DNA from: Eledone cirrhosa
Lineage: Eukaryota
Direction of reading: 5' to 3'
DNA length: 64,000 nucleotides
Assembly (NCBI GenBank): GCA_964016885.1
Contig: OZ024766.1
Span: forward strand, 16,678,001 to 16,742,000
The translations under genes and the position numbers were made by a program. Shown piece by piece: positions 1,339 to 63,997 of this stretch (position 1 is the stretch's first letter; each line of letters begins with the position of its first letter). Below the pieces are notes generated by a model. The model saw only the letters and a program-made list of their open reading frames with translations. It searched no databases and had not been told where the DNA came from.

Positions 1339-2364
1339 TTATGGTTTCTTACCTGTATGGGTATATTTGTGTTTAGTTAAATTACTTAATTGAGAGAATG
1401 ATTTACCACAGATATCACAGTGATGTGGCTTCTCACCTGTATGGATACGTAAGTGTTGAGTTAAGGGACTACTTTGAGAGAATGATTTACCACAGATATC
1501 ACAGCGATATGGCTTCTCCCCTGTATGGATACGTAAGTGCTCAGTTAAGTAACTTCTTCGAGAGAATGATTTACCACAGATATCACAGTGATATGGTTTG
1601 TCTCCTGTATGAGTACGTTTGTGTCTAGTTAAGGTACTACTATCAGAGAATGATTTACTACAGATATCACAGTGATATGGCTTGTCTCCTGTATGTATAC
1701 GTTTGTGGCTAGTTAAGGTACTACTATCAGAGAATGATTTACCACAGATATCACAGTGATATGGCTTCTCTCCTGTATGGGTACGTTTGTGGCTAGTTAA
1801 GTGACCACTTTGAGAGAATGATTTACCACAGATATCACAGTGATATGGCTTCTCACCTGTATGTATACTTTTGTGTCTAGTTAAATTACTATTAACAAAG
1901 AATGATTTACCACAGATATCACAGTGATATGGCTTCTCTCCTGAATGGGTACGTTTGTGGCTAGTTAAACTAATATTATTAAAGAATGATTTACCACAGA
2001 TATCACAGTTATAAGGCTTCTCTCCTGTATGAGTACGTATGTGAGAAGTTAAATTACTACTAAAAGAGAATGATTTACCACAGATATCACAGTGATAAGG
2101 CTTGTCTCCTGTATGTGTACGTTTGTGGCTAGTTAAAGTACTACTTACAGAGAATGATTTACCACAGATATCACAGTGATATGGTTTGTCACCTGTATGG
2201 GTACGTATGTGACAAATTAATATACGACTTAGAGAGAATGATTTACCACAGACATCACAGTGATATGGCTTCTCTCCTCTATCCTTTGACATCTCTTCTG
2301 TAATAGCCATATCTTTAGACATTGTTTCACATTTAATCTTCTTTTCACTCAATTTATTTTCCAT
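1339..2364 (-). CDS. C2H2 zinc-finger protein ZNF-1 (33-aa leader + 11 fingers)
   Basis: 341-aa ORF of 28-aa repeats [28 protein letters not shown]; (341-33)/28=11. Confidence 0.95.
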
Positions 2365-2899
2365 AATAATTCTTCTTCCCTTGGCAGAATTTACAGATGT
2401 TATTCTTTAATATTTTTTATATTATATTCCTAAAAAATATTTCTTCCGTTATATTTCCCTCAATTATGATCTCAGTTAATACCTGAAGATGATGCAAACT
2501 TCTTTGTCATTGAAGCTGAGTTAAAATACAAAATATATCTCTCATATATACACCACACAGTGAAGAAAAGGAATTTTGTCTTTAAACTCAGTTCTGAGGA
2601 AATATATCACAGTAATTCTGATTGATTTTTATAAACAGTGTTACATAAGTTCTGTTTAAAAAGTTTTAATCTTCAAATGATGATAAATAGAGGTGATGTA
2701 TCCAAGATTGAAAATAATAATTTATCCCAATGTCATCTGATATTCTGAAATGAAAAAGAAACAGTATGAAATAATAGAGTATACTTAAGAAGCAGAGATA
2801 GATTAAACAGTGGAAATTTCACATCTATAAACCCTAGAAACTTTTTATTGAAAAATCAAATTATTTTAGTTTTTAATTAGTTACAAGAAATCTTCCTCC

Positions 2900-59351: not shown

Positions 59352-62215
59352 GTTGTTTGCTACTATCCTCACAGCATCTGGAATAAATCTCATCTACCCT
59401 GGTAGGAGCACAAAAACAATATGTCAGACGACTATCTACACCTAGCCCAAAGATGTTATAGCAATATTTATTTGGAATCTACCTCCAGGATTTACAATCA
59501 ATCTCTGTGCAACCTGTCCCATTGAATTCCAGCAATGAATAGCAATGCAGGATGCCAGAGCCAGAAGAAATTGAGGTAATACAATCAGTTTTTCAGGAGA
59601 CAAACCATGATATTGAAGTGTTGCGTAAGTTTGTGGATGAAAATAAACCTTGACTGGTGGATGACCAGAAATATGCCTACCACAACATCATGAAAAACAT
59701 TCAACATGACAGTACCCAGTACTCACTGTAAGTGAGGTTGGCGTTAAGACGGGCATCCATCTTTAGAAATCAAGCCAGAATCAGTTCCCGTCCCACCCTT
59801 GCAAGCAGGGAGAAAGCGGACGTGAAATGAAATGATGATGAATGATGATGTCCCTCCCATATTTTCAATAATGTCACTTTGACGAACCTAAAGATAAATA
59901 ACAGAAAAACAGACCCTAAAATATATTTTCCGTGCTATTTCCAACTTCACCTTTTCTCTATATATAGAGAGAGCGCGAGGAGAATTTGTCATGTCTTCAT
60001 TACATAGGTGCTATTTTAAATAAACATCTTTTAACGGTCTGTTCTGCTATATTTTACTTTTCCACGTATATATATATATATATATATATTTATATATATA
60101 TCAACTAGAAATTGATTGACATATAAATAAACATATGAAACAATCACAGGGGATAATTTGTAAAAGTGTGTAAGCAGACATAGCTAGGTAGGTAACTAAA
60201 TAAAGTTTAACTAGAACTTCAAAGATAGATACCTTAGAAAATGATTAATCTTCCTTGTATATATTCCATTAAAGAAATATATTTCACCAATTAATCGATT
60301 GGTAAACGACAGTAGCCAGATCTTGGATTCTCAACAAGGAAGAAGTCCAACCATCTGTGTTTACGCATCAAGTTCAAATCAGCGACTGACCAGTAACACG
60401 TGCTGTATCTACTAAAAATACACACATCATACCAGCTTCGTCCCAGTTGCGTGAATAGGGTTATTGACAACTGGAAACAGCAGTCAGGTCCTTTCAACAG
60501 AGTTAGCTCTACAATTAAGAGGCCCTATTTATATATATATATATCCAAAATTAAGATAAATTAAAATGAAATTAATCTGAATCGTATCATGGGTGTCATG
60601 CCAATAAGACAGGCGCCATATCGCTCATAAAATAAGCTCCATGGACCTTATTTTACGAGTGATATGGCACATGTCTTTCTGTCATGACACCCATAATTTG
60701 ATATAGATTAATTTTATTTATCTTAATTTTGGATATATATATATATATACAGAGAAAGAGAAGAGTAGACAAACAGACAATGACAAAGAAGAGGAATTAA
60801 CCCCACACCCCCAGTATTTCACTGGTATTTCATTTATTGACCTCAAAATAACGAAGCAACTTTACCTCAGTGGGATTTGTACTCTGAGAACTAGAACAGA
60901 CACTGAAAATACATCAAGATGTGCACACACGTATATAAGAACACATAAACATACACATACATATACACACACATATATACACAAATAAAGATAGTCATTT
61001 TCATGGACAGAAATTTCTACACACTGACATATACACTCATACATATGTATATATATATATAGGAAAATGTTTAACCCCGACGGCAGAGCTCAAGCCATTT
61101 CGACGGTTATTTCTGGACTGTTTCCAGAAATAGCAGTCGAAACAGATTGAGCTCTGCCGTCGGGGTTAAACATTTTCCTATTACCCGCTCTACTACCCTA
61201 AGTATTGAGTACTCTGGTGCGTATATGGTCCATCTGGTTCTTTACCACACCTCCTTTGTTATATATATATATAAAATCATAAGAAACGAAAGGAGTTGTG
61301 TGGTTACTGTAAACAAAGTTTAAGATGGTAATATGGATGAAAGGAGAGAAGAAACCCTTCATCAGCTGTAAACCGAGATCATAGATGTTTTGGCACATAT
61401 ATATATATAGTGTTTGTAAATTCTGTACCATACAGATTTGTCAGCATAAGTCTTGGTTACAACTTCTACAAATAAAATGAAAGGAGAATAATTTCAGAAC
61501 AAACAAGTTTTATTCAAAACATTAAGAACATTGGTGGCACTATTTTGGGTGAGTGATATGGTTTTTATCTTGTCTGATTGTGTTTGTGTTCCATTAAGTA
61601 ACCTTATGTTGGTACCACAACATTTAGAAAATGATTTACCACAGACAACACAGTGATATGGTTCCTCTCCTGTATATGTTAGTGTCTAGTAAAGTCACAA
61701 CATTTAGAGAAGGATTTATCACAGACATCACAGTGATATGGTTCCTCTCCTGTATATGTTAGTGTCTAGTGAAGCCACATTTAGAGAAGGATTTAATGCA
61801 GATATCACAGTGATATGGTTCCTCTCCTGTATATGTTAGTGTGTAGGGAAGCCACAACATTTAGAGAATGATTTACTGCAGATATCACAGTGATATGGTT
61901 CCTTTTCTGTAAATGTTAGTGCTGAGTGAAGTGACTTATTTCAGAGAATGATTTCCCAGATATCACAGTGATATGGTTTCTCTCCTGTATATATATGTTT
62001 GTGTCTAGTTAAGCTAGCTTTTATAGATAACAATTTCCCCCAGATATCACAGTAATATGGCTTTTCTCCAGTATATATTTATGTTTGTATGTAGTTAATG
62101 TAGCAATACAAGAGAATAATTTCTCCGCAATATCACAGTTGTATGACTTCTCACTCATATGAATGTATTTGTGTCTAATTAATTTACAATTTTGAGACAA
62201 TGAGATATGACTTTG

Positions 62216-63997
62216 TTATGGTTTCTTACCTGTATGGGTATATTTGTGTTTAGTTAAACTACTTAATTGAGAGAATGATTTACTACAGATATCACAGTGA
62301 TGTGGCTTCTCACCTGTATGGATACGTAAGTGTTGAGTTAAGTAACTTCTTCGAGAGAATGATTTACCACAGATATGACAGTGATATGGCTTCTCTCCTG
62401 TATGAGTACGTATGTGAGAATTTATATTACTACTAAAAGAGAATGATTTACCACAGATATCACAGTGATATGGTTTCTCTACTGTATGTATACGTTTGTG
62501 TGTAGTTAAGTTACCACTTCTAGAGAATGATTTACCACAGATATCACAGTGATATGGCTTGTCACCTGTATGGGTACGGATGTGATAAGTTAATATACTA
62601 CTTAGAGAGAATGATTGACCACAGATATCACAGCGATATGGTTTCTCTCCTGTATGTATACTTTTGTGACTAGTTAAATTACTATTAACAAAGAATGATT
62701 TACCACAGATATCACAGTGATAAGGCTTGTCTCCTGTATGAGTACGTATGTGAGAAGTTAAATTACTACTAAAAGAGAATGATTTACCACAGATATCACA
62801 GTGATATGGCTTCTCTCCTGTATGTATATGTTTGTGTGTAGTTAAATGACTACTTCGAGAGAATGAATTACCACAGATATCACAGTGATATGGTTTCTCT
62901 CCTGTATGTATACGTTTGTGTCTAGTTAAGCTACCACTTTCAGAGAATGATTTACCACAGATATCACAGTGATATGGCTTCTCACCTGTATGTGTACGTT
63001 TGTGTCTAGTTAATTCACTATTAACAAAGAATGATTTACCACAGATATCACAGCGATATGGTTTCTCACCTATATGTATAAGCATGTGGTTAGTTAATAT
63101 ACTACTTTTAGAGAATGATTTACCACAGATATCACAGTTATATGGTTTGTTTCCTGTATGGGTACTTTTGTGGCTAGTTAAGGTATCACTGTGAGAGAAT
63201 GATTTACCACAGACATCACAGTGATATGGCTTATCACCTGTATGGGTACGGATGTGACAAGTTAATATACTACTTCGAGAGAATGATTTACCACAGATAT
63301 CACAGTGATATGGTTTATCACCTATATGTATACGCACGTGGCTAGTTAAATTACTCCTAAAAGAGAATGATTTACTACAGATATCACAGTGATATGGCTT
63401 CTCACCTGTATGTGTACGTTTGTGTCTAGTTAATTCACTATTAACAAAGAATGATTTACCACAGATATCACAGTGATATGGCTTCTCACCTGTATGTATA
63501 CGCATGTGGCTATTTAAATTACCATTAACAAAGAATGATTTACCACAGATATCACAGTGATATGGCTTCTCTCCTGTATGTGTACGTTTGTGGCTAGTTA
63601 AGGTACTACTTTGAGAGAATGATTCACCACAGATATCACAGTGATATGGCTTCTCACCTGTATGTATACGCATGTGGCTAGTTAATTTACTATTAACAAA
63701 GAATGATTTATCACAGACATCACAGTGATATGGCTTCTCTACTGTATGTGTACGTTTGTGGCTTGTTAAATTACCATTAACAAAGAATGATTTACCACAG
63801 ATATCACAGTGATATGGCTTCTCTACTGTATGTATACGTTTGTGACTAGTTAATTTACTACTTTCAGAGAATGATTTACCACAAACATCACAGTGATATG
63901 GCTTCTCTCCTCTATCCTTTGACATCTCTTCTGTAATAGCCATATCTTTAGACATTGTTTCACATTTAATCTTCTTTTCACTCAATTTATTTTCCAT
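62216..63997 (-). CDS. C2H2 zinc-finger protein ZNF-7 (20 fingers, near-identical to ZNF-4)
   Basis: 593-aa ORF; three amino-acid differences from ZNF-4 seen by eye. Confidence 0.95.

What the first reader, a model, noticed from the sequence alone, without database searches (positions are those of the whole stretch)
1339..63997. PRDM9-like finger shuffling from a shared vocabulary of recognition helices
Seen: the finger backbone DNA is almost invariant, while variation concentrates at helix positions -1 to +6. The same helices (VNSKLTR, VNSNLT, ESGTLT, LSSILTC, RSSHLTT, FSSNLTS, RRSYLT) recur in different orders across paralogs. The leader is fixed in all seven and the last finger (QLSxLT) in six. 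ZNF-5 fingers 3-6 track ZNF-4 fingers 13-16. Known: positions -1, 2, 3 and 6 contact DNA. Inference: concerted evolution plus diversifying selection.
Basis: partly seen in the sequence, partly recalled or inferred. Interest (0 to 1): 0.7.

Follow-up and report, generated by a model that had tools for sequence, protein, structure and literature searches.

The report
Zinc-finger gene cluster sharing one finger pool
Seven zinc-finger genes here belong to a 95-gene cluster, likely of an octopus, whose DNA-reading fingers recur in different orders from gene to gene, likely because ordinary recombination copies, deletes and swaps them while selection likely favours variety at the DNA-touching positions, much as in young mammalian zinc-finger clusters; the genes are not PRDM9 and their targets are unknown.

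Summary
The window holds seven finger-only C2H2 genes (94 fingers), part of a ~1.08 Mb cluster of 95 paralogs, likely octopod. Cassette flanks differ by only ~3% between lineages, yet fingers differ by ~15% and are as alike between genes as within one (Fst ~0.013). Recombination is evident: 21 of 88 genes have 5' and 3' flanks from different lineages, hybrid fingers exist, and ZNF-6 is fused into its non-coding relic fingers. Contact codons (-1, 2, 3, 6) give dN/dS ~3, ligands 0.06 and the rest 0.47; tree-free tests and neutral simulations agree. Corrections: inter-histidine and linker positions also vary, the leader is not fixed and no more constrained than the flanks, and ZNF-4 and ZNF-7 are one array. 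'PRDM9-like' holds for the mutational mechanism only: no PR/SET domain lies on this contig, the pool is cluster-wide, and the contact share (0.42) is below human or mouse PRDM9. Shared blocks date with the flanks, so much of the vocabulary is inherited and then reshuffled. Closest known: young mouse KRAB-ZFP clusters and the cephalopod C2H2 expansion. This scan reported the same cluster from neighbouring windows. Expression and targets are untested.

The parts
1339..2364 (-). ZNF-1 coding sequence, 341 aa: 33-aa leader + 11 C2H2 fingers ending QLSNLTK
907..1338 (-). non-coding relic ('ghost') fingers behind the ZNF-1 stop codon
   Evidence: 84-bp periodicity continues past the stop; cluster-wide ghost majority 79% identical to the coding-finger consensus
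18666..20195 (-). ZNF-2 coding sequence, 509 aa, 17 fingers
18077..18665 (-). ghost fingers behind ZNF-2
29336..30688 (-). ZNF-3 coding sequence, 450 aa, 14 fingers + one finger shortened in frame by 9 nt
28890..29335 (-). ghost fingers behind ZNF-3 (one keeps a C2H2 pattern at 29109-29171, in another frame)
38258..40039 (-). ZNF-4 coding sequence, 593 aa, 20 fingers
37662..38257 (-). ghost fingers behind ZNF-4
45393..46082 (-). ZNF-5 coding sequence, 229 aa, 7 fingers; fingers 3-6 match ZNF-4 fingers 13-16
   Evidence: 1, 4, 2, 1 nt differences
45692..45698 (-). likely conversion patch in ZNF-5 finger 4: equals ZNF-4 finger 14 except nt 34-36 and 40, and matches ZNF-4 finger 17 up to nt 44; changes helix positions -1 and +2
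44799..45392 (-). ghost fingers behind ZNF-5
51958..52536 (-). ZNF-6 coding sequence, 192 aa, 5 fingers; lacks the terminal QLS finger
51758..52017 (-). sequence after ZNF-6 finger 5 is the ghost-finger region (252 of 260 nt identical to ZNF-5's, 321 nt past its stop): likely deletion by in-array crossover
62216..63997 (-). ZNF-7 coding sequence, 593 aa, 20 fingers; 4 nt from ZNF-4 in the array but with a 5' flank of another lineage
   Evidence: locus L086: informative sites 25:3 in the 5' flank, 4:23 in the 3' flank
61620..62215 (-). ghost fingers behind ZNF-7

Best explanation
These seven genes belong to a young tandem cluster of 95 finger-only C2H2 genes, likely octopod, in which ordinary germline recombination likely reshuffles one cluster-wide pool of 84-bp fingers while selection likely favours amino-acid variety at helix positions -1, 2, 3 and 6. 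Steps: (1, shown) ~10-kb cassettes were duplicated singly and in multi-gene blocks, and lineages differ by ~3% in the flanks. (2, shown as a pattern; the crossover or conversion mechanism is inferred) misaligned exchange between and within cassettes adds or deletes fingers, joins the front of one gene to the back of another, and pastes short patches that make hybrid helices. The first finger is partly anchored and the last finger strongly anchored by unique flanking DNA. (3, inferred from rates) purifying selection keeps the zinc ligands and core, while new contact residues are preferentially kept, so backbone silent sites are homogenised but contact codons stay diverse. (4, untested) the proteins would bind a changing set of DNA targets, most likely transposable elements, with no known effector domain.
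For: Cluster: 95 leader-bearing genes in C27:15.76-16.84 Mb, 1452 fingers, 480 distinct DNA fingers, 60 distinct helix strings. Flank divergence between families is 2.8% (5') and 3.5% (3'). Fingers differ by 12.35 nt within and 12.51 nt between genes. Arrays decay fast: fully colinear in 30 of 35 pairs at <0.3% flank divergence, 20 of 45 at 0.3-1%, 6 of 58 at 1-2% and 6 of 3812 at 2-5%. 21 of 88 genes have discordant 5'/3' flanks after Bonferroni correction. 44-55 finger types are shared by 3 or more families, more than any gene holds (max 24 fingers). Four-gamete quartets with multi-nucleotide alleles occur between all 15 pairs of sub-finger modules. 124 of 155 private one-step variants reuse a codon already present in the pool. 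Selection: codon model omega 3.0 at contact codons (2dlnL 31.9), 0.06 at ligands, 0.47 for the rest. All 8 first/second contact bases carry all four nucleotides at 1% or more, against 1 of 8 four-fold sites; heterozygosity 0.46 vs 0.11. 0 of 120 neutral forward runs and 0 of 1800 coalescent runs reach that allele-number contrast. Common:rare N/S at contact codons is 38:10 vs 17:18, p=0.005, against p=0.83 for the backbone classes. In shared blocks, contact dN is 0.064 against dS 0.030.
Against: Shared blocks between distant lineages are no younger than the flanks (dS 0.030), and arrays have fewer long identical runs than flanks, so recent transfers between distant lineages are not in excess. 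Within-gene nearest neighbours are 4-fold enriched (64 vs 16 expected). Recombination is cassette-wide and the array is not shown to be a hot spot: incompatible site pairs are 44-48% at 600 bp or more within the 5' flank and 43-52% across the array. Non-coding ghost fingers also vary 1.5-fold more at helix positions (0.054 vs 0.037, p=0.0013), so part of the contrast may arise passively. The heterozygosity ratio alone was reached in 1-15% of worst-case neutral coalescents. The codon model assumes one tree, which recombination violates; the grid was coarse and the code was my own. Position +3 alone is not significant with its own silent rate (2dlnL 2.2). The 21 chimeric genes include duplicates and are not 21 events. 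19 of 95 ORFs lack the canonical end and 14 of 1452 fingers have lost a ligand. No target is shown.
Confidence: 0.7

Rival explanations
1. Common descent with gene-internal turnover: all genes inherited the fingers of one or a few ancestral arrays and then duplicated, lost and patched them mostly within each gene; exchange between genes is minor.
For: Shared blocks diverge as much as the flanks. Nearest neighbours within the same gene are 4-fold enriched. Only 17 of 181 co-occurring helix pairs show both orders.
Against: 21 of 88 genes are flank chimeras. Linkage decays within 300 bp in the flanks. 44-55 types are shared by 3 or more families against at most 24 fingers per gene. Fst is ~0.013, whereas gene-internal turnover alone would make fingers cluster by gene.
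Confidence: 0.15
2. Neutral repeat dynamics with relaxed constraint: contact residues are merely free to change, the cluster is a selfish or passive tandem repeat, and no diversifying selection acts.
For: Mild helix excess in non-coding ghost fingers. Non-contact dN/dS in shared blocks is ~0.8. The leader is unconstrained relative to flanks. Many ORFs are truncated. pN/pS computed inside contact codons alone by pathway averaging is only 1.0-1.1.
Against: Contact first/second bases are 4.4 times more variable than four-fold sites, including those next to them (-2: 0.02, +5: 0.09). 0 of 120 neutral simulations with conversion reproduce this. In 40 distant family members four-fold sites reach 0.28 within arrays against 0.10 here while contact sites stay high (0.55 vs 0.47), so four-fold sites are free to vary and were selectively homogenised here. 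Ligand omega is 0.06.
Confidence: 0.11
3. PRDM9-type function: the genes direct meiotic recombination and diversify because they erode their own binding sites.
For: 84-bp minisatellite-like arrays (within-array identity 0.85), hybrid fingers and contact-site excess. The contact share overlaps the low end of complete PRDM9 orthologs (0.33-1.0, PMC5519329 Table 1).
Against: No PR/SET hit on C27 (0 of 14). Pfam finds only zinc-finger families in ZNF-1 (best 25 of 45 shown) and nothing in the leader. There are 95 paralogs rather than one gene, and fingers do not cluster by gene.
Confidence: 0.02
4. Programmed or targeted diversification (helix-directed hypermutation or a dedicated recombinase).
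For: Variation is strongly position-specific and arrays change far faster than flanks.
Against: Novel private mutations fall at similar density across the finger (contact 0.72 per N site; beta, inter-His, linker and core 0.39-0.58; 31 events in all) with no dominant substitution type. Silent sites inside the helix are quiet. Recombination is equally evident in the flanks.
Confidence: 0.02

Closest known systems
Young mouse KRAB-ZFP clusters, Chr4/Chr2/Chr12 (Bruno et al., PMC11952569, passages and section 11 read; Kauzlaric et al., PMC5363842, passages and section 7 read)
   Same: Young tandem cluster expanded by multi-gene segmental duplication; fingerprints duplicated, deleted and repeated in runs of several fingers between close paralogs; finger array less conserved than its flanks.
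   Different: No KRAB or other Pfam domain is found here (33-aa leader only). Targets are unknown here, whereas many mouse KZFPs were shown by ChIP-seq to bind ERVs. A cluster-wide finger pool with Fst ~0.01 and sub-finger patches was not reported in the passages I read.
Coleoid cephalopod C2H2 expansion (Holzinger et al., PMC12513265, first of 7 parts and passages read; Albertin et al., PMC9068888, passages read)
   Same: Finger-only C2H2 genes in large clusters. The leader is homologous to an Octopus bimaculoides ZNF N-terminus (P0043), and the two highest finger identities among listed hits include Octopus proteins (70%, 69%).
   Different: Those papers describe numbers, phylogeny and expression; 'gene conversion' and 'recombination' do not occur in PMC12513265. 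This cluster is more homogenised (0.85 vs median 0.76 within-array identity) and more contact-focused (0.42 vs 0.33) than 40 distant family members of the same genome.
PRDM9 zinc-finger minisatellite (Baker et al., PMC5519329, section 10 part 1 and methods passages read; Alleva et al., PMC8600002, passages read)
   Same: 84-bp units homogenised by template switching or conversion, hybrid fingers formed by switches inside a finger, excess diversity at DNA-contact residues.
   Different: No KRAB-SSXRD-PR/SET seen. 95 genes share one pool. Fingers differ by ~12 nt rather than 1-4 nt. Contact share is 0.42 or 0.33 against 0.687 (human) and 0.910 (mouse). No link to meiosis.
Zebrafish FiNZ-ZNF family and metazoan TE-linked ZNFs (Wells et al., PMC10547256, passages read)
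   Same: KRAB-less lineage-specific ZNF expansion with positive selection enriched at base-contacting residues; octopus ZNFs were predicted there to bind TEs.
   Different: FiNZ genes have a conserved N-terminal domain and knock-down evidence for TE repression; here the leader shows no constraint beyond the flanks and nothing functional is tested.

Membership tests
PRDM9 | PR/SET methyltransferase domain upstream of the finger array | tested here: not met
   PF21549 search of the own genome: 14 hits, none on C27; Pfam on ZNF-1 lists zinc-finger families
PRDM9 | KRAB and SSXRD domains | tested here: not met
   The 33-aa leader has no Pfam family at E<=0.1; the ORF starts at the leader. Spliced upstream coding exons were not excluded by transcripts.
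PRDM9 | Concerted evolution of fingers within the single gene's array | tested here: not met
   Within-gene distance equals between-gene distance (12.35 vs 12.51 nt): homogenisation is cluster-wide
PRDM9 | Amino-acid diversity concentrated at DNA-binding residues (Baker statistic) | tested here: inconclusive
   Median 0.42 (positions -1, 2, 3, 6) or 0.33 (-1, 3, 6) over 94 genes; overlaps only the low end of complete orthologs (0.33-1.0). I did not see which positions the paper used.
PRDM9 | Meiotic expression and hotspot specification | not testable with these tools
   Needs testis ChIP and DSB maps
KRAB-ZFP clusters | N-terminal KRAB domain | tested here: not met
KRAB-ZFP clusters | Tandem cluster growing by multi-gene duplication with finger gain, loss and positive selection at -1, 2, 3, 6 | tested here: met
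KRAB-ZFP clusters | Sequence-specific binding and silencing of transposable elements | not testable with these tools
   No recognition-code predictor or binding data on hand
Coleoid cephalopod expanded C2H2 genes | Tandem C2H2 arrays with TGEKP linkers in large genomic clusters | tested here: met
Coleoid cephalopod expanded C2H2 genes | Affinity to Octopus C2H2 proteins | tested here: met
   Leader homologous to O. bimaculoides P0043 (MExxLxEKKIKCE); that leader finds 146 matches on many contigs of this genome, this cluster included. No tree with named proteins was built, so the taxon stays 'likely'.
Coleoid cephalopod expanded C2H2 genes | Neural and embryonic expression | not testable with these tools
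   No usable data for these genes

The most novel reading that the evidence does not exclude
The megabase cluster works as one germline recombining library of DNA-recognition modules. About 95 effector-less genes draw on a single pool of ~50 common finger types and sub-finger patches, so new specificities arise mainly by recombination across genes and are kept by diversifying selection against fast-changing targets such as transposons. That would be a KRAB-independent, invertebrate counterpart of both PRDM9 array dynamics and KZFP genome defence.
Probability: 0.3. Interest if true: 0.65.

Novelty: new member of a known kind. Interest (0 to 1): 0.38.

Why it matters
Cephalopods have among the largest zinc-finger repertoires, and whether these serve neural development or transposon control is open (PMC12988792, passages read). 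This cluster gives finger-level evidence of recombination and diversifying selection in a KRAB-less invertebrate family, which fits an arms race better than stable developmental regulation. It also offers a testable set: ~50 common finger types, 60 distinct arrays, and near-identical gene pairs that differ at single contact residues. The processes themselves are known from mouse KZFP clusters, zebrafish FiNZ-ZNFs and PRDM9. I found no paper that describes them in a cephalopod (searches, 72 of the held library; subscription papers are not covered).

Tried and rejected
RNA: no RNA holder listed for window:38000-41500. Four small-share runs of other organisms laid at 80% likeness gave only short, diverged finger pieces and were uninformative (4 of 24 listed runs laid). 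Leader-only homolog search: no candidate. The protein atlas gave generic C2H2 clusters only. The homolog search with residues 1-90 was dominated by generic fingers from many taxa. The first per-codon table required intact C/H ligands by construction and was redone by DNA tiling. pN/pS inside contact codons by pathway averaging (~1.0-1.1) was set aside as the main test because multi-base codon differences inflate the synonymous count; it is reported under the neutral rival. Array as a recombination hot spot: not supported. Excess of recent finger transfer between distant lineages: not supported. Leader as a conserved effector: not supported within the cluster. A psi-K-x-E motif (SUMO consensus, recalled) is in 24 of 40 distant leaders, which were picked by a query holding the motif. 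The Helitron origin of the spacer satellite, from earlier notes, was not confirmed: three short ORFs had no Pfam hit. The paper search on PRDM9 in molluscs returned 0 papers, and the SUMO/ZNF searches gave nothing on this family. No structure or complex prediction was run; the fold is textbook. Rows dropped: 2 of 95 genes had no 3' flank aligned over 500 nt; 5 more with non-homologous 5' flanks were left out (88 tested); 1 gene with under 4 fingers was left out of the per-gene statistics; 2 leaders with a codon deletion were left out of the leader counts; 8 shortened fingers were skipped in tiling. Supplements of the cited papers were not opened; Baker Supplementary file 3B and Wells Supplemental Fig. 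8 may bear on the comparisons.

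
Full report
WHAT IS THERE. Six-frame scanning finds seven minus-strand ORFs made of a 33-aa leader and 28-aa C2H2 fingers with TGEKP-type linkers: ZNF-1 1339-2364 (11 fingers), ZNF-2 18666-20195 (17), ZNF-3 29336-30688 (14 plus one shortened), ZNF-4 38258-40039 (20), ZNF-5 45393-46082 (7), ZNF-6 51958-52536 (5) and ZNF-7 62216-63997 (20). Each sits in a ~6-18 kb cassette with 115-, 77- and 82-bp satellites, and the 84-bp period runs on past each stop codon as non-coding relic fingers. The leader finds 95 genes in G000:C27:15.76-16.84 Mb, 52 on one strand then 43 on the other, and related genes on other contigs (only 150 of 475 candidates were scored, so 95 is a lower bound). 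I fetched all 95, 5 edge stretches, 20 near relatives and 40 distant ones. The leader is homologous to the start of an Octopus bimaculoides ZNF, so the host is likely an octopod.

OBSERVATION CHECK. The recurring helices, the QLSxLT last finger in six genes and the ZNF-5/ZNF-4 match (1, 4, 2, 1 nt) are real. Three statements need correction. The backbone is near-invariant only in the beta-hairpin, the ligands and L+4; the inter-histidine residues and the linker vary, with common silent variants. The leader varies among the seven and diverges as much as the flanks (2.2%; variant codons N:S 19:4). ZNF-4 and ZNF-7 differ at 4 of 1680 nt.

ONE POOL FOR THE CLUSTER. The 95 genes hold 1452 fingers, 480 distinct DNA sequences and 60 distinct helix strings. 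Grouped into 28 families by shared fingers, representatives show a mean finger distance of 12.35 nt within and 12.51 nt between genes (Fst ~0.013). The nearest neighbour lies in another gene for 332 of 445 fingers, in the same gene for 64 (16 expected) and is tied for 49; 319 of 445 helices recur in another family. The non-coding flanks differ by only 2.8% (5') and 3.5% (3') between families. Arrays stay colinear in 30 of 35 pairs below 0.3% flank divergence, 20 of 45 at 0.3-1%, 6 of 58 at 1-2% and 6 of 3812 at 2-5%. The vocabulary is local: genes of neighbouring clusters share 0-4 helices each with it.

HOW IT IS SHUFFLED. Blocks: 110 of 417 finger pairs and 44 of 389 triplets are shared between families, against 23 and 0.6 after order shuffling. 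Whole arms: 21 of 88 genes have a 5' flank of one lineage and a 3' flank of another after Bonferroni correction, ZNF-7 among them; these include duplicates and are not 21 events. Sub-finger patches: four-gamete quartets with multi-base alleles occur between all 15 module pairs, and association falls with distance (0.43 between -2..+1 and +2/+3; 0.22 to the linker). ZNF-5 finger 4 equals ZNF-4 finger 14 except at nt 34-36 and 40 and matches finger 17 up to nt 44, which rewrites -1 and +2. ZNF-6 runs from finger 5 into the relic fingers (252 of 260 nt), which explains its missing last finger. 124 of 155 private one-step variants reuse a codon already in the pool. Limits: 35 shared blocks between distant lineages have dS 0.030, the same as the flanks, and arrays hold fewer long identical runs than flanks, so much of the vocabulary was inherited and reshuffled rather than recently transferred. 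Yet 44-55 types are shared by three or more families while no gene has over 24 fingers, so one ancestral array is not enough. Linkage also decays within the flanks (incompatible pairs 23-27% under 100 bp, 44-48% at 600 bp or more in the 5' flank, 43-52% across the array): exchange is cassette-wide and the array is not shown to be a hot spot.

SELECTION. A grid codon model of my own on a FastTree tree of 365 fingers gives omega 3.0 for -1/2/3/6 (2dlnL 31.9 against 1), 0.06 for ligands, 0.69 between the histidines and 0.47 for the rest. Positions -1, +2 and +6 are individually significant; +3 is not with its own silent rate. Recombination breaks the single-tree assumption (stated in PMC5519329), so I added tree-free tests. 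All 8 first/second contact bases carry all four nucleotides at 1% or more against 1 of 8 four-fold sites; heterozygosity is 0.46 vs 0.11, and four-fold sites next to the contacts are quiet. Neutral coalescents never reached the allele-number contrast (0 of 1800), though the heterozygosity ratio alone was reached in 1-15%. Forward simulations with conversion and unconstrained contacts never reached it (0 of 120). Common versus rare codon alleles at contacts are 38N:10S vs 17N:18S (p=0.005) and 26:14 vs 48:22 in the backbone classes (p=0.83). In 40 distant family genes four-fold heterozygosity within arrays is 0.28 against 0.10 here, while contacts are 0.55 vs 0.47. Against: relic fingers also vary 1.5-fold more at helix positions (0.054 vs 0.037, p=0.0013), and pathway-averaged pN/pS inside contact codons is only ~1.0-1.1. 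Novel mutations (31 events) are spread over the finger, which argues against targeted hypermutation.

IS IT PRDM9? It mutates like PRDM9's array: template switches that form hybrid fingers are described in PMC8600002 (passages read). It is not a member. No PR/SET hit lies on C27, the leader has no Pfam family, fingers differ by ~12 nt rather than 1-4, and homogenisation spans the cluster. The Baker statistic is 0.42 (four positions) or 0.33 (three) over 94 genes, against 0.687 for human and 0.910 for mouse and 0.33-1.0 for complete orthologs. Within this genome it is still at the high end: 3 of 40 distant family genes reach 0.42 (those loci were 2-kb pieces with partial arrays).

COMPARISON AND NOVELTY. 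Finger duplication, deletion and repetition of 2-7-finger runs between close paralogs are described for mouse KZFP clusters (PMC5363842, section 7 read), multi-gene block duplication and TE targeting in PMC11952569 (passages, section 11), and positive selection at base contacts of KRAB-less fish ZNFs, with predicted TE binding by octopus ZNFs, in PMC10547256 (passages). The cephalopod expansion is known (PMC12513265, first part and passages; PMC9068888, passages), and 'zinc finger array shuffling' is invoked for effector-less insect ZNFs (PMC6444547, passages). My searches found no finger-level account for a cephalopod. Earlier notes of this scan describe the same cluster from neighbouring windows; they are not independent support. 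One of them (e1-9943541) prompted the block-age test and tempered my reading. The function, most likely binding of transposable elements, is inference from those families; no target or expression is shown here.

VERDICT. A real and well-supported case of cluster-wide finger reshuffling with likely diversifying selection; a new member of a known kind; interest 0.38.

Noticed in passing
window ~6960-11050 (+): Retroelement with zinc knuckle, aspartyl protease, RT, DUF7047 and integrase-like ORFs in separate frames (Pfam hits mostly weak) and similar ~200-bp ends, lying right behind a 25-copy 115-bp satellite; only in this cassette of the window.
   Followed up: partly
window 15796-17207 (+): LINE-type reverse-transcriptase fragment in two frames (RVT_1 E 4.7e-26 for the first).
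   Followed up: partly
window 12587-14058, 23794-27414, 34095-35404, 47208-49505, 55923-59338: An 82-bp satellite of 16-44 copies spaces the cassettes. Earlier notes call it a Helitron relic; three nearby short ORFs had no Pfam hit.
   Followed up: partly
leader residues 10-13 of each gene, e.g. window 2326-2337 (-): IKCE fits the psi-K-x-E SUMO consensus (recalled); kept in all 93 aligned cluster leaders (I or V) and in 24 of 40 distant family leaders.
   Followed up: partly
G000:C27:16.39-16.40 Mb (L052/L053): Gene orientation flips once in the cluster: 52 genes on +, then 43 on -; three families (for example L002/L058, L003/L062, L017/L069) have members on both sides.
   Followed up: no
L055-L060, L061-L067, L081-L086: The window's ZNF-2 to ZNF-6 series recurs three times as a multi-gene block with insertions.
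   Followed up: partly
L096 (G000:C27:16844000-16853999, -): An unrelated 19-finger ZNF ORF (846 aa, repetitive N-terminal part, no shared helix) lies at the right edge of the cluster.
   Followed up: no
L101-L120: Sister clusters on C27, C4, C12, C18 and C28 with the same leader show the same contact-over-silent contrast (0.48 vs 0.11) but their own helix vocabularies.
   Followed up: partly
ZNF-3 finger 10, also L022, L047, L056, L063, L067: Fingers shortened in frame by 9 nt (YHCGKSF...) occur in three families, likely by slippage between the two TGTG-containing cysteine codons.
   Followed up: no
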